From: a virus
Direction: 5' to 3' (one strand)
Length of the DNA: 64,000 bases
IMG/VR virus record: IMGVR_UViG_3300037310_000404
Span: 1 to 64,000 of that record
Under the pieces are notes generated by a model. The model saw only the letters and a program-made list of their open reading frames with translations, did no database searches and was not told the origin of the DNA. Shown piece after piece: positions 2-48,144 of this stretch. The first letter of the stretch is position 1; every line of letters starts with the position of its first letter. Both the position numbers and the translations under genes were made by a program.

Positions 2-682
2 GGATATTCTGGACCAACAGGTACTTCTGGATTTAGTGGTTATTCTGGACCAACAGGTACTTCTGGATTTAGTGGTTATTCTGGACCAACAGGTACTTCT
101 GGATTTAGTGGTTATTCTGGTCCTACTGGAACTTCTGGATTCTCAGGATTCTCAGGACCAACAGGAGTATCTGGATTTAGTGGTTATTCTGGTCCTACTG
201 GAACTTCTGGATTTAGTGGTTATTCTGGACCAACAGGTACTTCTGGATTTAGTGGTTATTCTGGTCCTACTGGAACTTCTGGATTCTCAGGATTCTCAGG
301 ACCAACAGGAGTATCTGGATTTAGTGGTTATAGCGGACCTTCTGGTTTGGCATTTTCTGGATCTAGCGGATATTCTGGCTACAGTGGCCCAACCGGAGTC
401 TCTGGATTTTCTGGGCCAACCGGATCCTCTGGATTCAGTGGATACTCTGGGGAGACTGGTACTTCTGGATTTAGTGGTTATTCTGGACCAACAGGTGTAA
501 GTGGATTCTCTGGTTACTCTGGTCCTACTGGAGTAAGTGGATTTAGTGGTTATTCTGGACCTACGGGAGTAAGTGGTTTTTCAGGTTACAGTGGCCCAAC
601 AGGAGTGAGCGGATTCTCTGGATATTCTGGACCAACAGGTACTTCTGGATTTAGTGGATTTAGCGGCGTTGGCGGAAGCGGC
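2..682 (+). repeat. Coding tandem repeat, ~36-bp unit (GYSGPTGTSGFS variants)
   Basis: Unit such as ggttattctggaccaacaggtacttctggatttagt is repeated with synonymous variation and stays in frame. Confidence 0.95.
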
Positions 683-1054
683 TCCACATATTATATGGAA
701 TTTATTATAGATGGTGCCGGTTCGGTTATAACGTCCGGATCCAAAGGCGTTCTTGAGGTCCCGTATGCATCAACTCCATTATCGTGGACATTGGTAAGCA
801 ATCTATCGGGGTCTCTGTCTGTTGATGTTAGGAGAATAACTTATTCCAACTATATTCTTGAAGGAAATATAACAGCCGCGAGTTCTATAGTCGGATCTGA
901 GAAACCGACCCTTTCATCTCAATCAAAGAATCAGGATACAACTTTAACTACGTGGTCTGGTCTTTCTGCTGGAGACCTACTTCTATTCCACGTAGACGCA
1001 ACACCGGCAACCACAACAAGGGCAACTCTATCTATAAGGGCTCAATTAACCTAA
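2..1054 (+). CDS. Collagen-like (Gly-X-Ser/Thr) fibre protein with C-terminal globular domain; 5' end outside the window
   Basis: The frame of ORF 347..1054 is open from base 2 (GYSGPTGTSGFSGYSG...). Gly every third residue. C-terminal ~120 aa is homologous to the C-terminus of 44449..45393. Ends in TAA overlapping the next ATG. Confidence 0.85.
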   Translation, partial: GYSGPTGTSGFSGYSGPTGTSGFSGYSGPTGTSGFSGYSGPTGTSGFSGFSGPTGVSGFSGYSGPTGTSGFSGYSGPTGTSGFSGYSGPTGTSGFSGFSGPTGVSGFSGYSGPSGLAFSGSSGYSGYSGPTGVSGFSGPTGSSGFSGYSGETGTSGFSGYSGPTGVSGFSGYSGPTGVSGFSGYSGPTGVSGFSGYSGPTGVSGFSGYSGPTGTSGFSGFSGVGGSGSTYYMEFIIDGAGSVITSGSKGVLEVPYASTPLSWTLVSNLSGSLSVDVRRITYSNYILEGNITAASSIVGSEKPTLSSQSKNQDTTLTTWSGLSAGDLLLFHVDATPATTTRATLSIRAQLT

Positions 1055-1674
1055 TGTCTATTAACATTGTATCATCGGGAACCGGGTACGCTAATTCTTT
1101 AAGTAATTCGCTGGCTGTTGACAAGCCGGACGGATCGAGTTTTTTATTGATATCTGTTTCATATCTTCCTAATACCGCACAAGAAATTCAATCCGTTAAG
1201 TTTGGCGGAGCTGATGCCGAATTTATAGAAATAGCCCAACAAGATACCAGCATAGGGATATCAATATGGATGGTTAGAGATATAGAAAATTTATCCGGTA
1301 ATATTGAGGTTGTTTTTGATGGACAAGTATTCAGTGTTATAAATTATATAATTCTGAATGGCGTAAATACCGATGCCCCGGTTTATAGAACCAGGTCTGG
1401 CGTTGGCAAAAGCATCACACATATACCAATTAAATCTTTCTCCAAGATAAATTGCCTAGCTATCGGAATCGGATCTGTATCCAACCCCAATGCCCATATC
1501 TCAACACTATACGGCTCGCAATTTAGAATATTTAATGTCGCATCTAATAATCTGATCAGCACTGAGGCGATAGCTGCATTCGGATCTTTTGATAATGCCT
1601 TTATAAATGTCCCCAACAGTCTTTCTGAATCTTCTGATTGGTCTATTATAATTATTGGATTGGAGGCGGCATAA
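1054..1674 (+). CDS. Hypothetical beta-rich virion-associated protein
   Basis: TAATG coupling gives a start at 1054 (MSINIVSSG) rather than 952. Resembles 1674..2351 (LLISV...SVKFGG vs LIVGV...GVSYGG). Confidence 0.7.
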   Translation: MSINIVSSGTGYANSLSNSLAVDKPDGSSFLLISVSYLPNTAQEIQSVKFGGADAEFIEIAQQDTSIGISIWMVRDIENLSGNIEVVFDGQVFSVINYIILNGVNTDAPVYRTRSGVGKSITHIPIKSFSKINCLAIGIGSVSNPNAHISTLYGSQFRIFNVASNNLISTEAIAAFGSFDNAFINVPNSLSESSDWSIIIIGLEAA

Positions 1675-2351
1675 TGGCTATTGTTTTTGACTCGGGGAGC
1701 GGAACTAACTTTAATGCCGCATCTGCATCTTATACCCATATTGTTGCTGATCAGCCAAATAAATTTCTTATTGTTGGCGTTACGATAAGAACGACTACGT
1801 CATCTGGAACGGGTGTTTCATATGGTGGTCAGCAACTAACTAGACTTGATTCTGTCACGAACAGTACAAATGTCAGGAACGAAATATGGTATTTGGCGAT
1901 GCCCCCAACAGGATCAAATACTCTTTCTGTTTCTTTAAATTCATCTTCTAAGACGTCCGTTGAAAGTACAAGCTATTATGGCGTCGATACCAGTTCTCCG
2001 TGGGGGGCTAGCGGCACTCAGTCAACAAGCTCCACGGCTGCTGCAGTCAGCGTAACCACAACAACCGCAAATAGCTATGTTTATAATCATGTGGCTGGAA
2101 GAACAAATATAGGAATCACGTTTACGGCCACATCACCAAATACAAAACGGGCAGATTTCGCCACCGATGGCGGTGCGGCGGCGTCAAACGCGCACGGAGT
2201 TGCCAATGATTTATCCACAACTACCGCAGGCCTATATATCGCCAGCGGAACATGGTCAACGTCAATAGCTTTTCATAATTGGGGGGTTGAGCTGAAACCA
2301 TTTACCGCTAAACCCTCTGCTTGCGGATATATAATTAAACCATTCAAATAA
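1674..2351 (+). CDS. Hypothetical Ser/Thr-rich beta-sandwich virion protein, paralogue of 45626..46360
   Basis: TAATG coupling at 1674 (MAIVFDSG). Shares MAI.F / V.YGG / E.WY pattern with 45626..46360. Confidence 0.7.
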   Translation: MAIVFDSGSGTNFNAASASYTHIVADQPNKFLIVGVTIRTTTSSGTGVSYGGQQLTRLDSVTNSTNVRNEIWYLAMPPTGSNTLSVSLNSSSKTSVESTSYYGVDTSSPWGASGTQSTSSTAAAVSVTTTTANSYVYNHVAGRTNIGITFTATSPNTKRADFATDGGAAASNAHGVANDLSTTTAGLYIASGTWSTSIAFHNWGVELKPFTAKPSACGYIIKPFK

Positions 2352-2357
2352 CTATTT

Positions 2358-2366
2358 TGATATAAT
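2358..2366 (+). promoter_or_regulatory. Extended -10 sigma70-type promoter (TGATATAAT), possibly giving a leaderless mRNA for the GT9 gene
   Basis: TGnTATAAT ends 7 nt before the ATG at 2373, and there is no Shine-Dalgarno sequence. Confidence 0.55.
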
Positions 2367-2372
2367 TAATAT

Positions 2373-3269
2373 ATGTTTAATATTTTAATTATAAAATTAG
2401 ACGCTAGCGGCGATGTGCTAAGAACCACATCGATACTTGAGGGCTTGGATAAACACTATCCAAGCCCTAAACATATTACGTGGATTACACATAAAAAGAA
2501 TACGCCCATCCTTAATTTTTGTCCGCTTATTGATGAAATTTATGATACGGGTTTTCTGCCGACATCCGTAAAAAAGAAAAAATTTGATGTGGCTATAAAC
2601 TTTGATGAAGATTTAACCGCATGCGACTTGCTTTATAATGTCGATGCAACTAATAAGTTTGGTTTTACTAATCACCAATATAAATACGCCCCAGTCAATG
2701 AACTAAGCGAATACGCCTATAAACTAACCAAGAGCGATAAATTAAAATTCAAATTAAATACCAAAACATATCCGCAGATCATATATGAAATGTGTGGCAT
2801 AACCTGGAATGGTGAGAAGTATGGGATGAGGTATCCACCAAAGCGAAATCATGACTATGTAGCATTAAATACCGAAGTCGGGGATAAGTGGCCTACAAAA
2901 AAATGGTTGGCGTGGGATGATCTAAAAACAAAGCTCGCATCCTCAGGAATTCCCTTTCAAGAACAAAGAAAATTTAATACTCTAGAAGAATACTTTGATT
3001 GGATAGCTGGCGCAAAAGTCGTCGTGACGGGTGATTCTCTTGGAATGCATGCCGCCATAGCGCTTGAGAGACCGACCGTGGCAATCTTTGGGCCTACGGC
3101 TCAAGTGGAAATCGAATCCTATGGCATTGTCGATAAGGTTTTCGTGAATGACTTGAAATGCTCTCCGTGTTATAAGAGTGCTTGCCCATACGCCATGGAA
3201 TGCATGCACGGAATTTCTTCCGATTTAATCCTTAACAAGGTATTGTCCAAATGGCACGAACAGCAATAA
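2373..3269 (+). CDS. Glycosyltransferase family 9 (ADP-heptose heptosyltransferase-like)
   Basis: ILIIKLDASGDVLRT, ITWIT, VVVTGDSLGMHAAIALERPTVAIFGPT and C-terminal CSPC..C....CM motifs typical of GT9. Confidence 0.85.
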   Translation: MFNILIIKLDASGDVLRTTSILEGLDKHYPSPKHITWITHKKNTPILNFCPLIDEIYDTGFLPTSVKKKKFDVAINFDEDLTACDLLYNVDATNKFGFTNHQYKYAPVNELSEYAYKLTKSDKLKFKLNTKTYPQIIYEMCGITWNGEKYGMRYPPKRNHDYVALNTEVGDKWPTKKWLAWDDLKTKLASSGIPFQEQRKFNTLEEYFDWIAGAKVVVTGDSLGMHAAIALERPTVAIFGPTAQVEIESYGIVDKVFVNDLKCSPCYKSACPYAMECMHGISSDLILNKVLSKWHEQQ

Positions 3270-4702
3270 TACTATTGGCATGGAACAAGCTTGAATATAC
3301 CAAGAAGTGCCTTGGTGCGTTATACCACAATACTCCGATAGGGTCTTTTGATCTTATACTTATTGATAATGGTTCATCCGATGGCACTTTAACTTATTTT
3401 ACCGACCTTCAAAAAACACATCCAGAGATTACGGTTTTAAGAAATCCAAAAAATTTGGGATTTGGAAACGCCATGAATCAGGGTATACGGTTGGCATTAG
3501 AAACTGATCACGATAGAGTGTGCTTGCTTAACAATGATACAGAAGTTAGGGATGGATGGCTTAAATCACTAGAACAATGCGCGGATTCGGACCAAAAAAT
3601 TGGTATGGTTCAATCAAATCTTGTTTCATTCGAGGATGGAAGATCTATCAGCTGCGGCGTAGATCTGGATCTTTCCTCTGAGAACTTCTTAAGGCCCATA
3701 GATATTGGTAAAACTGTTCCAGATCTTAGGGGAGTAACTTCGGACAGGTTTTATCTAAATGGCGCTTGTGTATTAATCAAGAAAGAGTTTGTGGAATCAG
3801 TTGGTTTATTTTCTTCTGAATTCTTTCCAGTTTACCATGAGGAAACAGATCTATGCATTCGCGGATATAAGGCTGGCTGGAGAATGGTATTTTGCGGGGA
3901 TTCGGTAGTTCAGCACCATGAGGCTGTTACTGGACATTCGTTGCCGGGCAGAGGCGAGCCAATATTTTGGAATAACTGGAATAAGCTTCTCAACAAGCAT
4001 GCCGCGTATATACACGATTTGGCTCATGAGAGATTTGGCCTAGATGCCGGTATAGAAGAATTACGCAGATTTAATCCATCCATGAGCATAGAAGGCAGCA
4101 GCAAGCTCTTGGCCGAAACATGGAAATCAAAAGATCCAAAGAGCAAAGAAGCCGTCGATAGATTTTATAAGGAATCTAGTGGCTATATAGGGGATCTTCT
4201 CGCATGGAATGCTGGTTCATACAAAAAGGAACTCGTCGATCACGTAATTTATGCATCTCGACATTTTAGTGTTAGATCTATTCTTGACATAGGCGCTGGC
4301 ATACTCAGTGATACGATAAAGCTCCGAAATTCTGGTATCTCAATGACTACGGTTGATTTTGACTCTGAACACTACAGGTTTGGTATCGATCGCCTCGGTT
4401 ATCGCAGGATAAAAGACGTCAATGTGAAATACGTGGGCGATGAACTGCCCAAATGTGATGCGATCATGCTTTTCGATGTCATTGAACATGTGCATGAGCC
4501 AGATAAGTTTCTAGACGCATATGTGGAAAAATCTGACGGGTTTATTTTTATGACTGTTCCTGAAAACTTGCCTCCGGATGAATCGGAAAAGCACCCAATG
4601 CATCTGGTGCAGTACGCCGACTTCTGGAAACAAATACCTCAATATTTAGAACAAAAGCATGGATTCAAAAGAGTTGATTTGATCACATTCAAAAAAGACT
4701 AA
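3251..4702 (+). CDS. GT2 glycosyltransferase fused to SAM-dependent methyltransferase domain
   Basis: N-terminal ILIDNGSSDGT, NLGFGNAMNQG, LLNNDT, EETDLC motifs; C-terminal ILDIGAG and LFDVIEHVHEP motifs. Confidence 0.85.
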   Translation: MARTAIILLAWNKLEYTKKCLGALYHNTPIGSFDLILIDNGSSDGTLTYFTDLQKTHPEITVLRNPKNLGFGNAMNQGIRLALETDHDRVCLLNNDTEVRDGWLKSLEQCADSDQKIGMVQSNLVSFEDGRSISCGVDLDLSSENFLRPIDIGKTVPDLRGVTSDRFYLNGACVLIKKEFVESVGLFSSEFFPVYHEETDLCIRGYKAGWRMVFCGDSVVQHHEAVTGHSLPGRGEPIFWNNWNKLLNKHAAYIHDLAHERFGLDAGIEELRRFNPSMSIEGSSKLLAETWKSKDPKSKEAVDRFYKESSGYIGDLLAWNAGSYKKELVDHVIYASRHFSVRSILDIGAGILSDTIKLRNSGISMTTVDFDSEHYRFGIDRLGYRRIKDVNVKYVGDELPKCDAIMLFDVIEHVHEPDKFLDAYVEKSDGFIFMTVPENLPPDESEKHPMHLVQYADFWKQIPQYLEQKHGFKRVDLITFKKD

Positions 4703-4703
4703 T

Positions 4704-6629
4704 ATGAAAATTTTAATGGTTGGATTTGATGCGCCGTGGATTAATACGGGTTTCGCTGCAACTCTAAGAGCTGTGGGTGGCGAGCTATTGAAAAGAGGGC
4801 ACCAGGTTTATAGCATAAGCGGAAACTTTGTGTTCGAGACAGACGGGCCGATACTTCATAATGGCATCATTGTGCTTTCAAACAAAGGGATGATGTATCC
4901 TGATACAGGTACATTTTTAAGGCATTACAATGAAGTAAATCCGGATATTGTCATAGCCCATAATGATTTTTATCGTATTAAGTACTTCTCGAAGCTTTCT
5001 GAAGATATCTTAGATAAAACTCTAGTTTGGCTGCCGATTGAAGACACTGATAGCCTTGGCGAATTAGAGGGGTTGCGCAAATTAAAGAATATAGCCTTTA
5101 CGACTAAGTACGGAATGAATTTATATAAAAGGCTACTTCCTGAGCAGCGTTTGTTTCAAATAAACCATCAAATAGGAATCACCGACGCCTCTGACCCGAT
5201 TCCATCCATTGATATGGATAAATTAACTAATAAATTCGTGGTTTTGAGGGTTGACCGCAATCAGGAACGCAAAAACTGGCCACATACCCTGGAATCTTTT
5301 CAAAGTTTTATAAAAAATGATTGTATAAAGGATGCAATTTTAATTGCAAAAACACGTAAAAAAGATGTTGCGAGCAGTATAGATCTCGGGGAATTAGTTA
5401 AAAAACTTGAAATTGAAGATAACGTTATTTTTGTCGAGAATGAGCTTACATCTCCTCAAATGCGCTGGCTCTACGAAAGTGCCGATGTGTTTTTATCAAC
5501 TACCGGCTCTGAGGGTTTTGGGCTTTCTATCGGAGAGGCCATGGCGTGCGGCAAGCCAATTTTGTGCACAGGATGCGCTCCTCTTTTTGATGTTGTTGGC
5601 CGTGGCGCTGGATCCTTCATTAATGTAGTTGGTAAAGAATACAATACCAATGTGCATGTCTCATATAACAAAGTAGATATCGCTCATGCCGCCAAGTTGC
5701 TGGCAGATTATTATGCCGATTGGAAAAATGGCGGATCCGTAATAGCCAAAGAAGGCTTGGTGGCAAAACGGCACGCCAACGCATATAAGATAGAAAGAGT
5801 TGTGGATGATTTCGAATCCGCCTTTGAAAAGATGTCAAAGCCATATAAAAAGGTTTTGGTGTCCGTAGCAACAAGAAATAGACCAGACGCTCTCGTGGCA
5901 TTGCTTACGTCATTGTTTAATCAGGCCTACAAGAATATATCTATTTATATCTTTGATAATTCTGATAACGAGGATTTATTAAAGAACAATGCGTTCTTGA
6001 AGCAGATGAAGCTGTTTAATGATTCCGGGCAAACTGCTTGTGTTTGGAAGAACAATGAACAAAATTGCCCCGATACTCATCAGAAAATATTTGATCTTGC
6101 CAAGAAAGTTGGCTGCGAGTTTGTGTTCAAGGTTGATGATGACTGCATACTTGAGTCGAACACCATCGAAGTTTTAATGGATGATATTCAACAGGATGAT
6201 AAAATAGCTGCCGTGGGTTGTTCTATATTGGAACCGGATAAGCTAACAAACAAGATCATGCCTATCGATTATCCTGCGCAAACCCTGGCTAACTTATGGT
6301 ATAACCGCCAATGGATGTGGGATAAAGAATTAAAGCAGACTGAGGTTGAACATCTTTACTCGTCCTTTATCTACAGGACGTCTGCAATGGATGCTGTGGG
6401 CGGATTTGCTGGCGGCCTGAGCAAGGTGGCGTTCAGGGAAGAAACATTAACGACATATCCAATGGTTTTAAAGGGTTGGAAGTTACACTATAATCCAGCT
6501 GCTATCATGTGGCATATGAAATCAGATCGCGGCGGGTGCAGAGATTTTCATATCGAAGAGCTATATAAAAGAGACGAAGCCATATTTAATGAACGAATTA
6601 AAAAGATGAAGGAAGATAATAATGCCTGA
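4704..6629 (+). CDS. Bifunctional GT4 (GT-B) plus GT2-like (GT-A) glycosyltransferase
   Basis: YESADVFLSTTGSEGFGLSIGEAMACGKPI is the GT4 EX7E signature; second domain VATRNR, IFDNS, FKVDDDC. Confidence 0.85.
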   Translation: MKILMVGFDAPWINTGFAATLRAVGGELLKRGHQVYSISGNFVFETDGPILHNGIIVLSNKGMMYPDTGTFLRHYNEVNPDIVIAHNDFYRIKYFSKLSEDILDKTLVWLPIEDTDSLGELEGLRKLKNIAFTTKYGMNLYKRLLPEQRLFQINHQIGITDASDPIPSIDMDKLTNKFVVLRVDRNQERKNWPHTLESFQSFIKNDCIKDAILIAKTRKKDVASSIDLGELVKKLEIEDNVIFVENELTSPQMRWLYESADVFLSTTGSEGFGLSIGEAMACGKPILCTGCAPLFDVVGRGAGSFINVVGKEYNTNVHVSYNKVDIAHAAKLLADYYADWKNGGSVIAKEGLVAKRHANAYKIERVVDDFESAFEKMSKPYKKVLVSVATRNRPDALVALLTSLFNQAYKNISIYIFDNSDNEDLLKNNAFLKQMKLFNDSGQTACVWKNNEQNCPDTHQKIFDLAKKVGCEFVFKVDDDCILESNTIEVLMDDIQQDDKIAAVGCSILEPDKLTNKIMPIDYPAQTLANLWYNRQWMWDKELKQTEVEHLYSSFIYRTSAMDAVGGFAGGLSKVAFREETLTTYPMVLKGWKLHYNPAAIMWHMKSDRGGCRDFHIEELYKRDEAIFNERIKKMKEDNNA

Positions 6630-7548
6630 CTATTTCAGAGGCGAGACTATATCGCTAACAGCTAATTACCTGGATTCTGGCTCATCGCCAATCAATACTG
6701 GTATTTCTGGAAACACTGTAGATGTTTATTACTACACATCTAGCGGTTCTAAGAATTTTTATGTGACTTCTGGAACAATGACTCAGGACGTAGATTATCC
6801 AAACAGGTTCTTTTATATGTGGCAAATACCGGCCACTGCCCCTGTCACCAATTATACGGCCCAGTATAACGCTCTCATGTCTGGAAATATCATACAAAGT
6901 ACTGATGTTTTTGGTGTTAGCCAGGCTGTAGCTACAACTGGAATTGTTGTTGGTAGCGTAACCGTATCGGGATCAATTGTCGATATCAGCGGAACCGGCA
7001 TCCAAAATGCATACGTACAAGTTGCTGATTTTTCATCTTCTCAGATTATAACCTCAACAACCACCAACGCGAGCGGCGTCTATTACGTATACCTAGATCC
7101 AGCCGACTACATCGTGGTTGCGGGCGCTTCAACTTATCTATCAAATAGCGTGGCAAAAACTGTCCCAACCGGCATGACGACATATAATTTTGGACCAATC
7201 ACATTGCTATCTTCCATCGGAACCGGCGCTGTTGCAATGTCTGATACGTATACTTACGTTGATCCTAATGACGGCTTAACGTATGGCCTTGGCAATCTAA
7301 AGGTATCCCTGTTTGCCAAAGTCACATCGCCAGTTTTGACCAGTGCTCTTGCCATAACAAGAACGGATGCAAGCGGCACATTTAATATGACGGCCAACAA
7401 TGGTGAATACGTTCTTAGAATTGAGGGCAATGGTCCCAATAATACGGTATTCGATACGGCATACGATATCGAGGTAAGTGATGCCTTTACTTCCGGAACC
7501 CCACTAGGTTTCAGATATGAAGGGACATCTCAATATAAATTTATCTAA
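6622..7548 (+). CDS. Ig-like / carboxypeptidase-regulatory-like domain virion protein
   Basis: VTVSGSIVD...TTTNASGVY..L.PADY and TRTDASGTF motifs; Ser-Gly rich. Confidence 0.6.
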   Translation: MPDYFRGETISLTANYLDSGSSPINTGISGNTVDVYYYTSSGSKNFYVTSGTMTQDVDYPNRFFYMWQIPATAPVTNYTAQYNALMSGNIIQSTDVFGVSQAVATTGIVVGSVTVSGSIVDISGTGIQNAYVQVADFSSSQIITSTTTNASGVYYVYLDPADYIVVAGASTYLSNSVAKTVPTGMTTYNFGPITLLSSIGTGAVAMSDTYTYVDPNDGLTYGLGNLKVSLFAKVTSPVLTSALAITRTDASGTFNMTANNGEYVLRIEGNGPNNTVFDTAYDIEVSDAFTSGTPLGFRYEGTSQYKFI

Positions 7549-7558
7549 GAGGTAGGCT

Positions 7559-8251
7559 ATGCTAGGAAGGTTTTCAAGAGGAATGAAGGTCTCTATACCG
7601 GCAGTATTCAGGGATGGCGCAAGAAATCCGGTGGATGTTGACAACGCAGTTTGTAGCGTAGAGCATTTCAGCTCTACGGAAAACAAGGTAGTGCAAATAT
7701 TAAGCGAGACAGCCATGCGAAAGGCTGGAGATGGATTTTATCTTTATGAATATATCATTCCGCCAAACGTCGAACACGGAAATTATATAGTTCGAATAAA
7801 AGCAAAGCAGCCGGGAAGCAAAAGCAACTTGCTAGAAGCTACTGATCATTTCGAGGTTGCCGAGTCTCTTTCACTTCGTCCAAAAAATGAAGAAGATATT
7901 CTAGCCAAACAACAAGAGGCGTTGCAGTCGCAAGCCAACCAAACCATATTAAATCCTACAGTCTCTCAGCCAATGGCATCCAATGCATATATGCAAAGAT
8001 CCGGTGAGAGATTGCTGGCCGAAGATGTGGTAACAAACGAGATAGGGCAACCATTAGCCGGGGTCCACGTAAATATATTCGAAAAGAATTCATTTATCCC
8101 AAAGTCTCCGAACAATATAAAGATAGCTTCGGCCATAACAACCACAGAGGGAAAATGGAGCGTCAACTTACTGCCTGGTGATTATGTATTCACGTATAAG
8201 CATCCGGACAGAAGAGAGTTTCACGAATTTAGAAAAGTACAAAAACTATAA
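7559..8251 (+). CDS. Ig-like domain protein, apparent paralogue of 6622..7548
   Basis: RBS GAGGT. F.RG N-terminus and C-terminal TTTEGKWSVNLLPGDY parallel the upstream gene. Confidence 0.6.
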   Translation: MLGRFSRGMKVSIPAVFRDGARNPVDVDNAVCSVEHFSSTENKVVQILSETAMRKAGDGFYLYEYIIPPNVEHGNYIVRIKAKQPGSKSNLLEATDHFEVAESLSLRPKNEEDILAKQQEALQSQANQTILNPTVSQPMASNAYMQRSGERLLAEDVVTNEIGQPLAGVHVNIFEKNSFIPKSPNNIKIASAITTTEGKWSVNLLPGDYVFTYKHPDRREFHEFRKVQKL

Positions 8252-8261
8252 GGGGTCTAAA

Positions 8262-8810
8262 ATGGCATCAAAAGAAGAATTCATACAAGAAGCAATTGTT
8301 AAGATAGGGGAATTCAAAACCGCCGTTGAGCAGTTCATTCTTGAAAACTCTGAAAAAGCTAAAGCAATTAAAGACAAAAAGAAGCTGAGCAAATTTGTTG
8401 ATCAGATTAAGGATGAGCACATTAAAAAGATCAAGGATTTCAGAAAGCTTCTGACATATCTATCGGCTAGGGCCCAAGAGGCAAAAATAGAACCGGACGA
8501 TCCTATACTTGATCCGGTTATGAATGAATATAAGATCGTGGATGAAATGCTCACGGACCCGGCGGCAGCAGAAGAGGCTCTTAGCAAGCGCAAAACTATT
8601 GAAAAAGAAGAAGGAATCTCGGAGCTTGGACCTATTGAGAATTTTGAGAGTTCAAAAAACAAAGAGCAGCTAGAAGACGAACTTCTTGATCTTGGTAAAA
8701 AGAGGGAAGAGGCCATAAGTGCAAAAGAAAAAGAAGAGATACAGAAAAAGATAGATCATCTACTTAGACTATATAAAGACTCCTCGCTTAAGAGCGGACT
8801 TAAGAAATAA
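8262..8810 (+). CDS. Hypothetical charged alpha-helical protein
   Basis: Open frame; start moved to ATG 8262 (MASKEEF), just after the upstream stop. K/E-rich. Confidence 0.7.
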   Translation: MASKEEFIQEAIVKIGEFKTAVEQFILENSEKAKAIKDKKKLSKFVDQIKDEHIKKIKDFRKLLTYLSARAQEAKIEPDDPILDPVMNEYKIVDEMLTDPAAAEEALSKRKTIEKEEGISELGPIENFESSKNKEQLEDELLDLGKKREEAISAKEKEEIQKKIDHLLRLYKDSSLKSGLKK

Positions 8811-8831
8811 ATATGCAAATGAGGTAATAAA

Positions 8832-9338
8832 ATGCCCACAGTTTTGTACCCACTCTCTGATGATTTGTACAGTGATAGGGAAAATCATCTAATTAACAAT
8901 CTACGCAAATTATTAAATGACTCCGATTCAGCGTGTCAGGTTTTCGATGATTCACAGCTATTTTCATACCTAGATATGGCTCTGGAAGATGTAAATTCAC
9001 ATCCCATGAAAACATACTATGATTTTGAGTCAATGCCAAGAGACTGGTTTTATCTGGTGGTTCTTGGTGGCTATGTATTGGCGCTGAACTCTCAGAGCAT
9101 TCGAGAGAAGGCCAGAAACTTTGTAGTTAGCGACCAGGGAATTACCTATACTCCGCCAGATATGCCGGGACACCTAGTAAGTGTTTCGCAGCAGATGGAA
9201 CAAAAGTATCAGACAATGAAGGAAAAAGTCAAAGCCAATGAGAAGCCATCTATTCTAGGAATTGGATCGGCTCGCGTGCTTATTCCTTCTCCCGCATTTG
9301 CTAAACTAAGACACTTAAGGGAAAGACGAGTATTTTAA
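8832..9338 (+). CDS. Putative head-tail adaptor (neck) protein
   Basis: RBS GAGGT. Helical LRKLLND...YLDMALEDVN...LVVLGG pattern; lies upstream of the neck and terminator genes. Confidence 0.55.
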   Translation: MPTVLYPLSDDLYSDRENHLINNLRKLLNDSDSACQVFDDSQLFSYLDMALEDVNSHPMKTYYDFESMPRDWFYLVVLGGYVLALNSQSIREKARNFVVSDQGITYTPPDMPGHLVSVSQQMEQKYQTMKEKVKANEKPSILGIGSARVLIPSPAFAKLRHLRERRVF

Positions 9339-11631: not shown

Positions 11632-12399
11632 ATGCCGCCAAAAAATTGTAAAATCACAGACTCTAACGGAAATCCAATTGGAGATAATCCAATCAGAACC
11701 CATCGGTCATATATTGACTGCGTTGGGGGCGGTAATCCTTTGCAATCTTCTTTAAATAACTGCTACCTTCAGACATCTCTTGGTTATGATCCAGTTACGG
11801 GGCAGCCTTTAACCGTTTTTGATGAACAAATAAATAGAGAAAAGCAGATTCTCGAAACACTGGGAGAGCTAGTTCTTATTTATAGAAGGCTTATTGTTCC
11901 TGACAAAACGATAGATAGTCGTCGCTGCATATGCTGGGACCCTGTTAGAAAACAAGCCCGTTCAAGCTGTCCTTATTGCAATGGATTTGGAGTTGTTTCC
12001 AATGATCCAAACATTAACAGGGTCGGCGGATTCCAGTGGCTTAGAAATCCCGAAAGAGACGATTCAATGTTCTTTGTCAATGAGGGAATGACGGCGCAGA
12101 AGCTTCAGTCAAATGATATTGGACTACAGATCAATCATCAATTGCATTTTTGGACTGTTCCGATCAGAAATTGCGATGGTGATTATGTTAATATCATTGA
12201 CGAGCGAGATATCATGATAAGATTTATATTCGACAGAGAAACAAAGACCGCAATCCGCGAGCTCGGAAGATATGAAATGACCAACGTCTCATACTCATTG
12301 GCCCAAGATAATTTCCTAATGCATATGGAATGGGATGCAAAGAGACTCGATCCAGGAATTTCGCAGCAGGAGTTTGGGCTTCCGAACTGGCTCTCTTAA
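11632..12399 (+). CDS. Putative neck / head-closure protein with Cys zinc-binding motif
   Basis: RCICWD...CPYCNGFG motif, beta-rich C-terminus (ERDIMIRF...RYEMTNVS), position between adaptor and terminator. Confidence 0.55.
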   Translation: MPPKNCKITDSNGNPIGDNPIRTHRSYIDCVGGGNPLQSSLNNCYLQTSLGYDPVTGQPLTVFDEQINREKQILETLGELVLIYRRLIVPDKTIDSRRCICWDPVRKQARSSCPYCNGFGVVSNDPNINRVGGFQWLRNPERDDSMFFVNEGMTAQKLQSNDIGLQINHQLHFWTVPIRNCDGDYVNIIDERDIMIRFIFDRETKTAIRELGRYEMTNVSYSLAQDNFLMHMEWDAKRLDPGISQQEFGLPNWLS

Positions 12400-13313
12400 T
12401 GGATGACATGAGAAAAAAATTACACGTAAACAAAGTTAGACATGAATGCATTAATAGAAATATTAAATTCATGGATAGTGTGTTTAATGGCGTCAGGGCC
12501 AGACATAACTTTTTCTGTGTAAAGCATAAAAAGACATATGCAACTAATTATAATAATTTGATTCAGGCTGGCGGTTGCAATTTGCCATGCTGTGCAACTC
12601 ATGAGTTTAAAAAATATACATTAAAAGAGGTCAAGGATAAGTGCGATTCTATTAATATAGAATTTATTGATAAAAAATACCTCGGAAGAACGCACAAGCA
12701 TAAATTTAAATGCATTAAACATGGAGAAATTTATACAAAATCCCTTGCAGATATTTTGCACAAGGATAGAGTTTTAAGATGCTGTAATCTAGATAGTAAG
12801 TTCAGAAAATATAAACTAATAGCTAAAAAGCGCGGATTCATGGTGCTGGATAGTAAGTATAAAAATTTGGATTCAAAATATGCGACTAGATGCTTGAGGC
12901 ATAACGAGGTCCATCAGGCTCGGCTCATAAATATAGTAAGGGCAAACAGTCAGGGAATTCATTGTTGCTGGATAAATATGAAGAGAAGATCTGGCGATAA
13001 TCACCCAAACTATAATCCAAATTTGACCAAACAGGAAAGATTGGGAAATCGTAGCAAGTGCAAATCCTGGCGTTTTAGGATATACAAGTTATTTGACAAT
13101 ACCTGCGATGCCTGCGGATCAGTTGGTCTTATTGGTATAAATCGTATAGCTCACCATATAGAATCATATATGTCAAATAAAAAATTGAGGTTTGATATAA
13201 ATAATGGGGCTTGCTTGTGCTCTGAGTGTCATGACTCTTTTCATAAAACATACGGCTATGGTAATAATACCCGAGCCCAGTATGATGAATTCAAATCCAA
13301 GGTAATAGCATAA
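12399..13313 (+). CDS. HNH homing endonuclease with Cys/His zinc-ribbon repeats
   Basis: CDACG...AHHIESY...RFDINNGACLCSECHDSFH HNH motif; repeated C.KH units; start by TAATG coupling at 12399. Confidence 0.85.
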   Translation: MDDMRKKLHVNKVRHECINRNIKFMDSVFNGVRARHNFFCVKHKKTYATNYNNLIQAGGCNLPCCATHEFKKYTLKEVKDKCDSINIEFIDKKYLGRTHKHKFKCIKHGEIYTKSLADILHKDRVLRCCNLDSKFRKYKLIAKKRGFMVLDSKYKNLDSKYATRCLRHNEVHQARLINIVRANSQGIHCCWINMKRRSGDNHPNYNPNLTKQERLGNRSKCKSWRFRIYKLFDNTCDACGSVGLIGINRIAHHIESYMSNKKLRFDINNGACLCSECHDSFHKTYGYGNNTRAQYDEFKSKVIA

Positions 13314-16856: not shown

Positions 16857-17381
16857 ATGGCTACAGTAAATGCATTTTTACAAAACCAAGACCGAATTGC
16901 CGTCTCAACAGCGGTAAAGGTCTTGGTTAATGGAAATGTCATCGGCGTTGTCCAATCACTAGATCCAAGCCAGGACAGAAGTACTACGGCTGTTCGTGGT
17001 ATCGGTATCGGTGACAGACAGATTGACCGTATTTGGGGCTTAACGGAGTATAAGCTCAGCGTTCAAAAGTTGGCATTATTCAAAAAGCAGATGTTGAACT
17101 TGTTTGGGTATGACGACGGTTTCAGAATGTTGGCTCAGCTTCGTTCCCCTATTGACATCCAAGAGATCTTGCTGCTACCAGTTGCTGATCCAAATAGCGA
17201 ACCACTAACCATTCGTCAGACTGTTTATCGTGGATGCTATATGACCAGCTACGGCGCTCCAAGAGCAATCGGCGGAGGCGATATTATAATAACTGAATCT
17301 GCCAACTTCGATGTAACCTGGGTAGACAACGGCGAAACTAATCCGTTTGATTATGATGTTGGTCTTTCAATAACTCAATAA
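16857..17381 (+). CDS. Tail tube protein
   Basis: RBS GAGGAG. Follows the sheath; 174 aa; IGVVQSL...VRGIGIG and YRGCYMTSY...ITESANF tube-fold pattern. Confidence 0.85.
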   Translation: MATVNAFLQNQDRIAVSTAVKVLVNGNVIGVVQSLDPSQDRSTTAVRGIGIGDRQIDRIWGLTEYKLSVQKLALFKKQMLNLFGYDDGFRMLAQLRSPIDIQEILLLPVADPNSEPLTIRQTVYRGCYMTSYGAPRAIGGGDIIITESANFDVTWVDNGETNPFDYDVGLSITQ

Positions 17382-17436: not shown

Positions 17437-17490
17437 CCAAATAGATTAAAACGGTCCATCGAAAGATGGACCGCTATTTGGCATTTTTTG
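17437..17490 (+). terminator. Rho-independent terminator after sheath-tube
   Basis: Stem CGGTCCATC-GAAA-GATGGACCG (17452-17473), extended by CCAAATAG/CTATTTGG, followed by a T6 tract. Confidence 0.85.
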
Positions 17491-44448: not shown

Positions 44449-45393
44449 ATGACATATCCATTTTTTGTGCCTTCGGGCGTAAGCATATATCCGGAGATTA
44501 GCGGTGCCCAAGCGCTCGGAACCGCAAGCAGTCCATTTGCAAATATATATACCGATCAGCTTATTGTTAGCGGGACTGCTATATCATCCTCTGGAGCATC
44601 CGGGTACTCTGGCTTCTCTGGATATAGTGGTCCAACTGGTATTTCTGGGTTTAGTGGTTACAGTGGACCCACTGGAGTAAGCGGATTCTCTGGTTATTCA
44701 GGACCCACCGGAATAAGCGGTTTTAGTGGCTATTCTGGTCCTACTGGCGTGAGTGGATTTTCTGGCTTCTCTGGTTTCTCTGGACCAACAGGAACCTCTG
44801 GATTAGAAAAACCTGCCAGCACAACGTCATCCGGAATCGCCATATGGTCTGGAACCGGAGCTGCTGGTCTTCTTAACACAAACATAACTATCGATAACGC
44901 CAATCTTGGGGTTATGACATTACCATCTGGCGGAAGCATACTAAATTCTGTTTCTGGAATTAATATACTTGGCTCTGTATCAAATCCATTTTCTGGAATA
45001 TTTGCCTCAACTATTATCGGCGAAACTAGAATGCTGAACTATGTAATAGATGGCGGAGGATCTACGATAGCGTCTGGATCTGCCGGATTTGTAGAAATAC
45101 CCTATAACATGAATGCGCTTTCGTGGGACCTGCTTGGAAACACTTCTGGGTCTCTTTCTGTAGATGTAAGAAGAGCAACATACGCCAGTTGGTCCGGAAC
45201 CGGGATTGCGGTTGGTAATTCTATAGTCGGATCAGAAAAACCTACCATAAGTAGCGCGTTTAAGGGTCAAGATACAGCCTTAACGACTTGGTCGGGGATA
45301 AGCACGGGAGACATTTTAGAGTTTTTTGTGGATGCTACTCCATCCGGAATATCCAGGGCAACTTTGGCCCTTAGACTTCGTAGGAATTCATAA
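44449..45393 (+). CDS. Collagen-like fibre protein, paralogue of 2..1054
   Basis: RBS AGGAG; short G-X-S/T repeat; C-terminal domain homologous (IDG.GS...SGSLSVDVRR.TY...SIVGSEKPT...QDT.LTTWSG). Confidence 0.85.
   Translation: MTYPFFVPSGVSIYPEISGAQALGTASSPFANIYTDQLIVSGTAISSSGASGYSGFSGYSGPTGISGFSGYSGPTGVSGFSGYSGPTGISGFSGYSGPTGVSGFSGFSGFSGPTGTSGLEKPASTTSSGIAIWSGTGAAGLLNTNITIDNANLGVMTLPSGGSILNSVSGINILGSVSNPFSGIFASTIIGETRMLNYVIDGGGSTIASGSAGFVEIPYNMNALSWDLLGNTSGSLSVDVRRATYASWSGTGIAVGNSIVGSEKPTISSAFKGQDTALTTWSGISTGDILEFFVDATPSGISRATLALRLRRNS
44592..44800 (+). repeat. Coding 36-bp collagen-like tandem repeat
   Basis: GYSGPTG(I/V)SGFS units. Confidence 0.9.
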
Positions 45394-47509: not shown

Positions 47510-48144
47510 TGGTACTAGATCCCTTAACACAAGATTCCATTCTCGGGCTCATCATATTAAATCAAGATGTGCTTGCTCAGGATCTATATAACCATACGGA
47601 GGGAATTTATTATTCTCGCATGTTCCAGAAGCCATCTAATCATATCTGGTATCAATTGAGTTGGATTGATAATCAATCGGTGCAAACTTTGGGATTGACT
47701 GATATTGATGTCAGAGTAAGAACCGGCGATACGCTCCCATATCTTTCGCCAATTACAAAGAAAAGATATACATTGGATCAAATCAATAATCAAATTAAAA
47801 ATTCAGACCCGAAAGACATAGATCAGCTATTGTATCATTGGCAGTTATCGCGCGCTACCTTGGGGTCTGATGCTGGCGGCGACGCTTCAATGGATGACTC
47901 TTCGCGTGTTTTCTTTGAATTGGGTACAACAGCGAATAGCGCGGTTTTAACAGCCGAAGATGATCCTGTGTGGAACTTCTGGAGTTTGCCGCATATCCAT
48001 AATATAAGCTATATCTCAAATAACTTAAGCCATGATTATCTACAACTGAGAATAGACCTAAAAAGTCTTGATTTAATCTCAAAAGTAGAGATGTATAAGA
48101 TAACTCTATCAAGCATATTAAAAAAGGATGCTGACAACACATGA
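47509..48144 (+). CDS. Hypothetical structural protein
   Basis: VRVRTGD...YLQLRIDLKS beta-sandwich pattern; coupled to the fibre genes. Confidence 0.6.
   Translation: MVLDPLTQDSILGLIILNQDVLAQDLYNHTEGIYYSRMFQKPSNHIWYQLSWIDNQSVQTLGLTDIDVRVRTGDTLPYLSPITKKRYTLDQINNQIKNSDPKDIDQLLYHWQLSRATLGSDAGGDASMDDSSRVFFELGTTANSAVLTAEDDPVWNFWSLPHIHNISYISNNLSHDYLQLRIDLKSLDLISKVEMYKITLSSILKKDADNT

What the first reader, a model, noticed from the sequence alone, without database searches (positions are those of the whole stretch)
2..6629. Candidate phage virion O-glycosylation system: four GT domains plus a methyltransferase beside Ser/Thr collagen
Seen: GT9, GT2-methyltransferase and GT4-GT2 genes sit inside the virion morphogenesis region, directly after a collagen-like gene whose Y position is almost always Ser or Thr. 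Established: virion glycosylation by GTs encoded among structural genes is known in mycobacteriophage Che8, and Bacillus anthracis BclA carries O-glycans on its collagen-like region. Inference: these enzymes build a multi-sugar, O-methylated glycan on the virion surface, possibly using a heptose donor. I do not know of this enzyme combination in a myophage.
Basis: partly seen in the sequence, partly recalled or inferred. Interest (0 to 1): 0.85.

Follow-up and report, generated by a model that had tools for sequence, protein, structure and literature searches.

The report
Phage sugar-transferase cluster beside Ser/Thr collagen fibres
A large uncultured freshwater phage carries three tightly packed genes with four sugar-transferase domains and one methylase among its fibre and tail genes, next to collagen-like fibres whose third repeat position is almost always Ser or Thr; it probably sugar-coats its own particle, but nothing measured here rules out that it remodels the host's surface sugars instead.

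Summary
Window 2-1054 is a collagen-like fibre gene cut by the contig start, with Ser or Thr at 72 of 75 Y positions. After two small beta-sandwich ORFs come GT9 (2373-3269), GT2 + SAM-methyltransferase (3251-4702) and GT4 + GT2 (4704-6629). Fibre-like genes, sheath and baseplate follow.

The enzymes are soluble. The 127 kb held has no lipid-carrier initiating transferase and no enzyme for hydroxymethylated DNA bases. Natural fusions in relatives tie GT4, GT2, MT and the second GT2 together. A cultured freshwater phage, P19250A, has the MT + GT2 pair right after its tape measure. A promoter-like motif before GT9 recurs before a second glycosylation island outside the window (about 69-78 kb of the contig).

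GT2 genes are commoner in viral records with Ser/Thr collagens than in records with Lys/Asp collagens (20/34 vs 8/43), but they lie no closer to the collagen gene than chance. The GT9's cellular relatives sit in lipid-carrier glycan operons, and the literature reads such genes as host O-chain modifiers.

Verdict: virion O-glycosylation is the best reading (about 0.45), and host glycan remodelling is a serious rival (about 0.3). This scan has noted similar phage GT-collagen pairings in many other genomes. This one differs in using a canonical GT9 rather than a TibC-type enzyme.

The parts
2..1054 (+). Collagen-like fibre gene (5' end cut by the contig start): G-X-[S/T] repeats plus a 123-aa C-terminal jelly-roll knob.
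   Evidence: Pfam Collagen E 3.7e-34. 72 of 75 Y positions are Ser/Thr. The knob model (pLDDT 75) best matches the tail-fibre tip of phage 7-7-1 (Z 9.2), a Ralstonia phage GP4 capsid chain (Z 8.9) and the KHP40 cement protein (Z 8.2).
1054..1674 (+). ORF of 206 aa with unknown function; predicted beta-sandwich seen in viral protein clusters.
   Evidence: No Pfam or PHROG hit. ESM Atlas structure matches to viral clusters at TM 0.83-0.85. Its start overlaps the collagen stop.
1674..2351 (+). ORF of 225 aa, 30% Ser+Thr; the same beta-sandwich type, with a LamG/ConA-like lead.
   Evidence: Atlas structure matches to viral clusters at TM 0.78-0.85, and to one cluster in which 38% of members carry Laminin_G_3. 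Ser+Thr content.
2358..2366 (+). Promoter-like extended -10 motif TGATATAAT (context TTTTGATATAATT), 7 bases before the GT9 start codon.
   Evidence: Five forward copies in the contig against 1.7 expected, each just upstream of an ORF start. Two precede the glycosylation island outside the window, at 69441 and 75858.
2373..3269 (+). GT9-family glycosyltransferase (298 aa, GT-B, soluble).
   Evidence: PF01075 at 55 bits. 186 homologues, all carrying PF01075 and aligned at 97-100% coverage. Conserved G13, D14, D221, GMH, G240-x-T242 and four Cys. Best solved relative is WaaC. No TibC/Aah match.
3251..4702 (+). GT2 domain (about residues 1-265) fused to a class I SAM methyltransferase (about 330-457).
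   Evidence: Pfam. Motif I D346-x-G348-A349-G350 is invariant. Weak NCBIfam matches to rhamnosyltransferase, MftF and UbiG-type O-methyltransferase models, below their cut-offs. Its start overlaps the GT9 gene by 19 bases.
4704..6629 (+). GT4 domain (about 1-380) fused to a second, divergent GT2 domain (about 384-640; called GT2b here).
   Evidence: Pfam. The E270-x7-E278 motif is invariant. The GT2b domain is 34% identical to gp25 of Methylophilaceae phage P19250A.
6622..7548 (+). Fibre-like virion protein (CarboxypepD_reg domain, 24% Ser+Thr); its start overlaps the GT4-GT2 gene by 8 bases.
   Evidence: Pfam PF13620 E 2.2e-10, weak phage_tail_N; PHROG tail fibre E 8e-5; junction.
7559..8251 (+). 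Second CarboxypepD_reg-like protein; last gene of the tightly packed block.
   Evidence: Pfam PF13620 E 1.9e-4, below the gathering score. A 10-base gap lies before it and a 580-base gap after it.
44449..45393 (+). Complete paralogous Ser/Thr collagen fibre (314 aa): N-terminal anchor, 24 G-X-[S/T] triplets and the same C-terminal knob.
   Evidence: 57% identity in the knob.

Best explanation
The three genes at 2373-6629 form a soluble, cytoplasmic, five-domain glycan-building module (GT9; GT2 + O-methyltransferase; GT4 + GT2). The phage most likely uses it, together with a second glycosyltransferase and nucleotide-sugar island outside the window, to build a short methylated oligosaccharide directly on Ser/Thr hydroxyls of its own virion surface proteins before or during assembly.

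The best candidate acceptors are the two collagen-like fibres (2-1054 and 44449-45393), whose Y positions are almost all Ser or Thr and which end in a fibre-tip or cement-type jelly-roll knob.

Inferred order: one transferase, most plausibly the GT4 or the phage-specific GT2b domain, starts the chain on the protein. The other GT domains extend it, with the GT9 probably adding a heptose-like sugar. The methyltransferase caps a sugar hydroxyl.

Shown here: the domains, their solubility, their tight packing with fibre genes, the fusions that tie them together, and the missing lipid-carrier and DNA-base enzymes. Inferred: the acceptor, the donors and the order of steps.
For: 1. Anatomy. Collagen, two beta-sandwich ORFs, three GT genes and two fibre-like genes are co-directional, with junctions of -1, -1, +21, -19, +1, -8 and +10 bases, and terminator-like sites are no more frequent than in shuffled sequence. 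Sheath and baseplate follow.
2. None of the three proteins has a membrane-spanning segment (highest 19-residue hydropathy is at most 1.27). The 127 kb has no PF02397 or PF00953 initiating transferase.
3. The domains travel together. P0005 fuses GT4 + GT2 + MT + GT2b in one 1079-aa protein. P0134 and P0252 fuse MT + GT2b. P0135 pairs the GT2 with a different (FkbM-type) methyltransferase.
4. The cultured siphovirus P19250A has an MT (gp24) and a GT2b homologue (gp25, 34% identity) directly after its tape measure. The same tail module, two genes upstream of the tape measure, holds a 926-aa fibre-like protein with 26% Ser+Thr.
5. PF00535 occurs in 20 of 34 viral records with Ser/Thr collagens against 8 of 43 with Lys/Asp collagens (p 3.5e-4). 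Among records at least 90% complete the counts are 6/6 against 3/12.
6. Independent pairings. A fibre with a homologous knob (E 2e-50) lies head-to-head with an unrelated 896-aa multi-GT gene in L255. A family of about 600-aa GT2-TPR-GT2 proteins lies 0.4-1 kb from Ser/Thr collagen runs in four loci.
7. The collagen knob resembles phage fibre tips and capsid cement proteins.
8. The same promoter-like motif precedes this cluster and the sugar island.
9. Precedents in the literature: mycobacteriophage capsid and tail-tube glycans (Freeman et al. 2023, as cited in PMC12619734); PBCV-1 A064R, a soluble early GT-GT-MT enzyme for the capsid glycan (PMC9614988); SgtA glycosylating Thr in the GPT repeats of BclA3, with the GT gene next to the collagen gene (PMC7157674); and Ser heptosylation by TibC (PMC4358343).
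Against: - No glycan has been measured.
- Across 19 records, GT2 genes are not nearer to Ser/Thr collagen genes than random placement would give (combined p 0.17). A local scan found a GT ORF in only 7 of 112 Ser/Thr loci.
- The enrichment test is not controlled for lineage or habitat. At least ten of the controls come from one sample.
- The GT9's closest cellular relatives (Omnitrophota, 40-42% identity) lie in operons with a WecA-type initiating transferase, which means lipid-linked glycan assembly.
- The cluster has its own sigma-70-like motif, whereas the sheath and other structural genes are preceded by a different motif. It could therefore be an inserted accessory cassette.
- No gene here belongs to a family proven to glycosylate proteins: no BAHT, and only a non-significant SdgA match.
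- About a third of the genome is missing.
Confidence: 0.45

Rival explanations
1. Host envelope glycan remodelling. The soluble transferases act at the cytoplasmic face of the membrane on the host's own lipid-linked intermediates (LPS core, O-antigen, S-layer or capsule precursors). This changes the cell surface during infection, for example to block superinfection or to stop progeny sticking to debris.
For: - All characterised GT9 enzymes recalled here act on LPS cores (established knowledge). The best solved relative is WaaC.
- The closest cellular orthologues of the GT9 sit in multi-GT operons with a PF00953 WecA-type transferase, methyltransferases and a DUF2079 membrane protein.
- The phage lacks its own initiating enzyme, which fits reliance on the host's.
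- The cluster has its own sigma-70-like promoter motif.
- Published reading of glycosyltransferases among tail-fibre genes of pelagimyophages: modification of the host O-chain (PMC7029224).
Against: - No flippase, polymerase, ligase or Gtr-type membrane protein was seen.
- The genes are translationally coupled to fibre genes.
- The same GT9 subfamily occurs in DPANN archaea, which have no LPS, so the acceptor is not fixed to lipid A-Kdo.
- Only the GT9 is orthologous to the Omnitrophota operon. The other domains match only at family level.
- The MT + GT2b pair sits in the tail module of an unrelated siphovirus.
- GT2 genes are enriched in Ser/Thr-collagen phages.
Confidence: 0.3
2. DNA sugar hypermodification. 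The transferases decorate hydroxymethylated bases of the phage genome with heptose-like or other sugars to evade restriction.
For: Phage gene clusters are known to put heptose, Kdo and other glycans on 5hmC, and some lie near structural genes (bioRxiv 10.1101/2023.12.21.572611). This phage makes its own activated sugar.
Against: - The only thymidylate-synthase-family gene is a canonical ThyA: 412 bits to PF00303, E 1e-112 to bacterial ThyA, and the dUMP-specifying Asn and the C-terminus are kept.
- There is no Tet/JBP dioxygenase, no ThyX and no C5 DNA methyltransferase in the 127 kb.
- No GT here matched the TET-associated GT family.
- The genes sit among fibre genes, not replication genes.
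- Caveats: one third of the genome is unseen, and the Tet_JBP search had no positive control.
Confidence: 0.05
3. Another soluble or secreted product. The cluster makes a free or small-molecule-linked glycan, or glycosylates host or phage non-structural proteins, and its place among fibre genes only reflects a permissive insertion hot spot.
For: Variable regions around tail-fibre genes of aquatic myophages collect unrelated accessory genes (PMC7029224). The cluster has its own promoter-like motif. Close relatives are rare and are seen only on short contigs.
Against: The start codons overlap those of flanking virion genes. MT + GT2b recurs in another phage's tail module. No acceptor candidate other than the Ser/Thr-rich virion proteins is evident.
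Confidence: 0.12

Closest known systems
Mycobacteriophage virion glycosylation (Che8 and relatives; Freeman et al. 2023, Cell Host Microbe, as cited in PMC12619734 and PMC11256854)
   Same: Phage-encoded soluble glycosyltransferases are held responsible for O-glycans on the phage's own structural proteins.
   Different: There the glycans sit on the C-termini of capsid and tail-tube subunits of actinophage siphoviruses and were measured. Here the candidate acceptor is a collagen-like fibre of a large aquatic myovirus, the enzyme set is GT9 + GT2-MT + GT4-GT2, and nothing has been measured. tblastn of the GT4-GT2 protein against 50,697 phage records hit no mycobacteriophage. The paper itself was not held.
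Chlorovirus PBCV-1 A064R (GT-GT-methyltransferase) and A111/114R (three GT domains) (PMC9614988, PMC7826918)
   Same: Virus-encoded, soluble, multi-domain enzymes that join transferase domains to a sugar O-methyltransferase and build the glycan of a virion protein. They are expressed early, before the capsid protein.
   Different: Eukaryotic giant virus; N-linked glycan on the major capsid protein; different GT families. No sequence relationship was tested here beyond domain type.
BclA / BclA3 collagen-like exosporium glycoproteins with the adjacent SgtA transferase (PMC7157674)
   Same: A collagen-like region with Thr at the Y position (GPT triplets) is O-glycosylated on those residues by a GT-A enzyme encoded next to the collagen gene. 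The window's repeat contains 16 GPT triplets.
   Different: Bacterial spore surface, not a virus. One initiating O-GlcNAc transferase rather than four GT domains. BclA's C1q-like knob was not among the listed fold matches of the phage knob (inconclusive).
Bacterial autotransporter heptosyltransferases TibC / Aah (BAHT; PMC4358343)
   Same: GT-B enzymes that use ADP-heptose and put heptose on Ser of repetitive surface proteins in the cytoplasm. They show that heptosyl transfer to protein Ser is possible.
   Different: The window's enzyme is a canonical GT9, not a BAHT. There is no TIGR04414 match in the whole contig and no TibC hit in the PDB sequence search at E up to 1. Earlier notes of this scan describe BAHT-type enzymes with proline-free Gly-Thr-Ser fibres. 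None occurs in the 34 Ser/Thr-collagen records tested here.
LPS core heptosyltransferases WaaC / WaaF / WaaQ (CAZy GT9)
   Same: Same family by Pfam. N-terminal GDV and C-terminal D-x-G-x-H / GPT motifs are present. WaaC is the best solved relative.
   Different: Scores are far below NCBI's equivalog cut-offs (52 against 134.6, 49 against 185, 44 against 170). The protein is shorter (298 aa). Its subfamily extends to DPANN archaea without LPS, and in Omnitrophota it sits in WecA-type operons rather than lipid A-core clusters.
Glycosyltransferases in the host-recognition cluster of pelagimyophages and cyanomyophages (PMC7029224)
   Same: Aquatic myophages with several glycosyltransferase and sugar-nucleotide genes interspersed with tail-fibre genes.
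   Different: Those authors read them as host O-chain modifiers, and their most common family is GT8. Collagen acceptors were not considered.

Membership tests
CAZy GT9 / Pfam PF01075 (Glyco_transf_9) | Profile match above the curated cut-off and full-length GT-B alignment with family members. | tested here: met
   55.1 bits against a cut-off of 22. 186 homologues, all PF01075, at 97-100% coverage. G13, D14, D221, G224-M-H226 and G240-x-T242 are conserved.
CAZy GT9 / Pfam PF01075 (Glyco_transf_9) | Uses ADP-heptose (or another NDP-heptose) as donor. | not testable with these tools
   Context only: a second GT9-like gene and an SDR outside the window whose best solved relatives are a GDP-6-deoxy-4-hexulose reductase (2pk3, 4e-67) and a GDP-heptose 4,6-dehydratase (7us5, 2e-64).
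LPS heptosyltransferase I / II / III (NCBIfam equivalogs TIGR02193, TIGR02195, TIGR02201) | Score above the equivalog cut-off. | tested here: not met
   48.7 against 185.3, 52.2 against 134.6 and 44.1 against 170.2 bits.
BAHT (TibC/Aah protein heptosyltransferases, TIGR04414) | Match to the family profile or to the TibC sequence. | tested here: not met
   No match in the whole contig at E up to 0.01. No TibC chain among the PDB sequence hits at E up to 1. The profile search had no over-cut-off positive control.
GT2 (PF00535), two domains | Profile match above the cut-off; acidic DxD-type motif. | tested here: met
   64.3 bits (3251-4702) and 32.3 bits (4704-6629) against a cut-off of 23.3. A VDDDC motif is seen in the second domain (translation; alignment).
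GT4 (PF00534, Glycos_transf_1) | Profile match above the cut-off; E-x7-E motif. | tested here: met
   50.4 bits against 26.4. E270 and E278 are invariant in seven homologues.
Class I SAM-dependent methyltransferase | Profile match above the cut-off; glycine-rich motif I. | tested here: met
   PF13489 at 32.4 bits against 27. D346-x-G348-A349-G350 is invariant. That a sugar hydroxyl is the substrate is inferred.
Collagen triple-helix repeat protein (PF01391) | Uninterrupted G-X-Y runs; profile match. | tested here: met
   Runs of 39 and 36 triplets; 116.7 bits against 27.2. Triple-helix formation itself is not testable here, and Pro fills only 17 of 75 X positions.
Phage virion glycosylation system (Che8 type) | Glycan chemically detected on virion proteins and dependent on the phage GTs. 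| not testable with these tools
BclA/SgtA-type collagen glycoprotein | Thr/Ser at Y of the collagen repeats with a transferase gene nearby. | tested here: met
   96% Ser/Thr at Y, including 16 GPT triplets. The first GT gene begins 1.3 kb downstream in the same tightly packed block.
BclA/SgtA-type collagen glycoprotein | C1q/TNF-like C-terminal trimerisation knob. | tested here: inconclusive
   The model is a jelly roll. Its top matches are phage fibre tips and cement proteins (Z 8-9). A TNF-family member (4-1BBL) scores Z 7.0, and BclA is not listed.
Phage DNA sugar hypermodification cluster | An enzyme that makes a hydroxymethyl- or hydroxy-pyrimidine (dCMP/dUMP hydroxymethylase, or C5-MTase plus TET-like dioxygenase). 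| tested here: not met
   Canonical ThyA only. No PF12851, PF02511 or PF00145. This holds for the 127 kb held, about 66% of the genome.
Lipid-carrier (Wzx/Wzy or WecA/WbaP-initiated) glycan cluster | A polyprenyl-phosphate sugar-phosphate transferase encoded in the cluster. | tested here: not met
   No PF02397 and no PF00953 in the contig, whereas the Omnitrophota operon holding the GT9 orthologue has PF00953.

The most novel reading that the evidence does not exclude
Ser/Thr-position collagen-like fibres, which occur in well over a hundred IMG/VR phage and giant-virus contigs, are a widespread class of virus-made O-glycoproteins. Phages would glycosylate them in the host cytoplasm with their own soluble, modular transferase sets. 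In this phage that would be a canonical GT9 re-used on a protein-linked glycan, capped by O-methylation and fed by a phage-made heptose-like GDP-sugar. The result would be a sugar coat on the particle that shapes adsorption, stability or escape from grazers and defences.
Probability: 0.3. Interest if true: 0.8.

Novelty: new variant of a known kind. Interest (0 to 1): 0.55.

Why it matters
Phage-encoded virion glycosylation has been measured in mycobacteriophages (and virus-encoded capsid glycosylation in chloroviruses), and it changes how particles are recognised. Aquatic phages carry many glycosyltransferase and sugar-nucleotide genes whose targets are unknown and are usually assumed to be host LPS or DNA.

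This locus gives a concrete, testable acceptor hypothesis: Ser/Thr at the Y position of collagen-like fibres. It also points to a conserved methyltransferase + GT2 pair that is present in a cultured phage-host system (Methylophilaceae phage P19250A), so the question can be taken to the bench. If the hypothesis holds, it would extend protein O-glycosylation by GT9-family enzymes beyond LPS. It would also show that sugar-coated fibres are common in environmental viruses.

Tried and rejected
1. Synteny in close relatives could not be done.
- IMG/VR holds no close relative of the GT4-GT2, GT9 or neighbouring 489-aa proteins.
- The homologues at 50-67% identity sit on short ENA, Logan or JGI contigs.
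- The one metagenome scan returned only hits at 47% identity or less over short stretches (31% or less for the stronger ones), none a close relative.
- Equal longest-contig lengths (9380 for P0001 and P0016; 14445 for P0014 and P0135) suggest shared contigs but do not prove it.

2. En-bloc capture of the Omnitrophota operon is rejected. The family order GT9-GT2-GT2-GT4-(WecA)-GT2 looks similar, but only the GT9 is orthologous (42% identity). The other domains match at 21-29% identity, with E from 1e-15 to 2e-4.

3. General adjacency of GT2 genes to Ser/Thr collagen genes is rejected: combined p 0.17 over 19 records, and a weak local scan.

4. A BAHT enzyme in this phage or in the Ser/Thr-collagen records tested: none found.

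5. The four-Cys motif of the GT9 as a TibC-like iron finger is not supported. Its spacing is C-x2-C-x4-C-x5-C, against C-x2-C-x15-C-x11-C in TibC (PMC4358343).

6. Paralogy of ORFs 1054-1674 and 1674-2351 by sequence: none detectable. They are alike only in predicted fold.

8. The first batch of the enrichment test (15/19) overstated the effect. A second batch gave 5/15, and the pooled figures are the ones reported.

Full report
**What is there.**
The window is the first 64 kb of a 126,997-bp linear IMG/VR virus record that CheckV puts at 66% complete. From base 2 a reading frame open at the contig start encodes a collagen-like protein. It has 75 G-X-Y triplets in two runs, with Ser (55) or Thr (17) at 72 of the 75 Y positions. 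Phe, Pro and Tyr are the commonest X residues (Pfam Collagen E 3.7e-34).

Two ORFs without family matches follow, at 1054-1674 and 1674-2351. Each starts on the stop codon of the gene before. Then come three enzyme genes:
- 2373-3269: a GT9-family transferase.
- 3251-4702: a GT2 domain fused to a class I SAM methyltransferase.
- 4704-6629: a GT4 domain fused to a second, divergent GT2 domain, called GT2b here.

The next gene (6622-7548) overlaps the last enzyme gene by 8 bases. It and 7559-8251 carry CarboxypepD_reg-type beta-sandwich domains typical of fibres. Tail sheath (14693-16834) and baseplate J (31907-33511) lie further on. A second, complete Ser/Thr collagen gene lies at 44449-45393. 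The exceptions are that the GT genes are 1.3 kb from the collagen gene, not directly after it, and that the upstream context is lost at the contig end.

**The parts in more detail.**
- GT9. It is a full-length member of its family. All 186 homologues found carry PF01075 and align over 97-100% of the protein. The N-terminal Gly-Asp, the C-terminal Asp-x-x-Gly-Met-His and Gly-Pro-Thr motifs, and four cysteines are conserved. WaaC is the best solved relative. The protein stays far below NCBI's cut-offs for LPS heptosyltransferases I, II and III, and it is not a TibC/Aah-type enzyme.
- GT4 and methyltransferase. The GT4 domain keeps the E-x7-E motif. The methyltransferase keeps motif I.
- Solubility. 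None of the three proteins has a hydrophobic stretch that could span a membrane.
- Collagen knob. The C-terminal 123 residues of the collagen protein are shared by both collagen genes of the phage (57% identity). They fold into a jelly roll (pLDDT 75). The best structural neighbours are the tip of the Agrobacterium phage 7-7-1 tail fibre (Z 9.2), a capsid-surface chain of Ralstonia phage GP4 (Z 8.9) and the trimeric cement protein of phage KHP40 (Z 8.2). The collagens are therefore virion surface fibres.
- The two intervening ORFs. Both share a roughly 210-residue beta-sandwich seen in many viral clusters, with a Laminin-G-like lead (leads only).

**Links between the domains.**
Close homologues of the three enzymes (43-67% identity) exist only on short metagenome contigs. 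More distant relatives show the domains joined in other ways:
- One 1079-residue protein carries GT4, GT2, methyltransferase and GT2b.
- Two proteins fuse the methyltransferase (64% identical to the window's) to GT2b.
- One pairs the first GT2 with a methyltransferase of another fold.

The cultured Methylophilaceae phage P19250A encodes a methyltransferase of this type (gp24) and a GT2b homologue (gp25, 34% identity) side by side, directly after its tape-measure gene. The same tail module, two genes upstream of the tape measure, holds a 926-residue fibre-like protein with 26% Ser+Thr and 17% Gly. These fusions and the repeated tail-module setting argue that the domains work on one product and that the product concerns the particle.

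**Links to the rest of the genome.**
Outside the window, at about 69.5-78 kb of the contig, lies a second island. It has a GT2-like gene, a second GT9-like gene, a KdsC-type HAD phosphatase, a small PfkB kinase, a nucleotidyltransferase fused to RpiB, a sugar C-methyltransferase and an SDR. The SDR's best solved relatives are a GDP-6-deoxy-4-hexulose reductase (4e-67) and the Campylobacter GDP-heptose 4,6-dehydratase (2e-64). Earlier notes of this scan treated that island and left its product open.

The motif TTTTGATATAAT, a perfect extended -10 element, occurs five times on the forward strand against 1.7 expected, each time just upstream of an ORF start. One copy ends 7 bases before the GT9 start codon. 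Two others precede the island and its C-methyltransferase-SDR pair. The sheath and several other structural genes are instead preceded by TTTTATAAAA. This suggests that the window's cluster is switched on with the sugar island rather than with the structural operons. PBCV-1 shows the same timing for its capsid-glycan enzymes (PMC9614988). It would also fit an inserted accessory cassette.

**Tests of the rival targets.**
- DNA. The only thymidylate-synthase-family gene is an ordinary ThyA. No ThyX, Tet/JBP dioxygenase or C5 DNA methyltransferase was found. Phage DNA glycans that include heptose do exist, but they depend on such enzymes (bioRxiv 10.1101/2023.12.21.572611).
- Host lipid-linked glycans. 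The contig has no WbaP- or WecA-type initiating transferase. However, the nearest cellular GT9 relatives (Omnitrophota, 40-42% identity) lie in operons with several GT2 and GT4 genes, methyltransferases, a DUF2079 membrane protein and a WecA-type transferase. In cells, then, this GT9 branch extends lipid-linked oligosaccharides. Only the GT9 is orthologous between the phage and those operons. The same branch also occurs in Woesearchaeota and Nanoarchaeota, which have no LPS, so the acceptor is not tied to lipid A. A published study of pelagimyophages reads glycosyltransferases among tail-fibre genes as host O-chain modifiers (PMC7029224). This rival stays alive.

- Sampling. A DNA pattern for the window's 12-residue repeat hit at least 119 stretches of IMG/VR, including giant-virus bins. 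112 of the 119 loci carry collagen runs with at least 60% Ser/Thr at Y, mostly GPT/GYT types. A Lys/Asp-type collagen pattern served as the control.
- Presence. In the whole records that could be searched, PF00535 (E at most 1e-5) was present in 20 of 34 Ser/Thr-collagen records against 8 of 43 controls (Fisher p 3.5e-4). For records of at least 20 kb the counts were 19/29 against 6/30, for 20-70 kb 9/17 against 3/24, and for at least 90% complete 6/6 against 3/12. The test is not controlled for lineage or habitat, and the first batch alone overstated the effect.
- Distance. The distance between GT2 hits and collagen runs is no shorter than random placement gives (combined p 0.17). A local scan found GT ORFs in only 7 of 112 Ser/Thr loci.
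- Individual pairings do exist. In L255 a fibre with a homologous knob lies head-to-head with an unrelated 896-residue multi-GT gene. A family of about 600-residue GT2-TPR-GT2 proteins lies 0.4-1 kb from Ser/Thr collagen runs in four loci.
- Other notes of this scan. They report many further phage pairings of transferases with Ser/Thr collagen-like fibres, often with TibC-type enzymes. No TibC-type gene occurs in this phage or in the 34 records tested here.

**Reading.**
The most likely function is cytoplasmic O-glycosylation of the phage's own surface proteins, with the Ser/Thr collagen fibres as the best acceptor candidates and a methylated, possibly heptose-containing, oligosaccharide as the product (about 0.45). 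Remodelling of host lipid-linked glycans is the main rival (about 0.3). DNA modification is unlikely (about 0.05). The acceptor, donors and order of transfers are inferred, not shown.

**Comparison and novelty.**
The system works like the mycobacteriophage virion glycosylation genes, the chlorovirus A064R and A111/114R enzymes and the SgtA-BclA3 pair. It is not a sequence relative of any of them as far as tested (PMC9614988; PMC7157674). Virion glycosylation by virus-encoded enzymes is known, and glycosyltransferases among myophage fibre genes are published. The new points are the enzyme combination (a canonical GT9 with GT2-MT and GT4-GT2), the proposed collagen acceptor and the link to a cultured model phage. 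I file it as a new variant of a known kind, of moderate interest until a glycan is measured.

The Freeman et al. paper was not held and is cited through papers that cite it.

Noticed in passing
window 14598, 28271, 36821, 46388, 60069, 61995 (and eight more sites in the contig): The palindromic motif TTTTATAAAA lies in intergenic gaps just upstream of the sheath gene and of several other structural and non-structural genes. It may be a late promoter or a regulator site. One copy (5306) lies inside the GT4-GT2 gene.
   Followed up: partly
window 17489; contig 69441, 75858, 92541: Further copies of the extended -10 motif TTTTGATATAAT, each just upstream of an ORF start. The copy at 17489 follows a strong hairpin after the gene at 16857-17381.
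   Followed up: partly
window 40048-43575: A 1175-aa protein with YadA-head repeats (E 3e-26) and an antifreeze-like beta-roll hit, probably a long adhesin-like tail fibre.
   Followed up: no
window 48141-50597 and 50600-53164: Two adjacent proteins of about 820-850 aa that end in the Gly_rich_2 domain (PF21722). They are probably paralogous fibre or baseplate-periphery proteins.
   Followed up: no
window 12330-13313: A strongly basic HNH endonuclease-like ORF (PHROG HNH families, E about 1e-9) inside the structural module.
   Followed up: no
L009 (KX815270.1) 7373-8963: Cultured Methylophilaceae phage P19250A gp24 and gp25, annotated hypothetical, are a UbiG-like methyltransferase and a GT2 of the window's GT2b type, right after the tape measure. 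This gives a tractable model for the function.
   Followed up: partly
L255:1-2688 (-) and L255:2673-4556 (+): An IMG/VR contig pairs an 896-aa ORF that has a GT4-like N-terminus (read by eye from the sequence; no GT4 profile hit) and two GT2 regions (HMM hits) head-to-head with a collagen fibre of GYTGSx repeats. The fibre's knob is homologous to the window's.
   Followed up: partly
L082:10058-11824, L138:3670-5502, L056:4147-6093, L134:4144-6327: A family of 590-730-aa proteins lies 0.4-1 kb from Ser/Thr collagen runs in unrelated viral contigs. In L082 and L138 two GT2 N-terminal halves flank TPR repeats; L056 shows one GT2 hit and L134 was not scanned. TPR arms suggest a protein acceptor.
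   Followed up: partly
L326, L329, L330, L333, L335, L340, L342: The window's GT9 subfamily occurs at 28-32% identity in DPANN archaea (Woesearchaeota, Nanoarchaeota), next to GT2 and GT4 genes. These organisms have no LPS.
   Followed up: partly
L344:779-13765: An Omnitrophota operon from Lac Pavin encodes DUF2079, NTase-GT2, a B12-radical SAM enzyme, GT2, MT, YdjC, MT, GT9, GT2, GT2, GT4, a WecA-type transferase and GT2. It appears to build an elaborate methylated lipid-linked glycan of unknown structure.
   Followed up: partly
contig 87191-88057 (outside the window): The phage ThyA is canonical but carries an insertion of about 24 residues between residues 106 and 131, relative to bacterial enzymes.
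   Followed up: no
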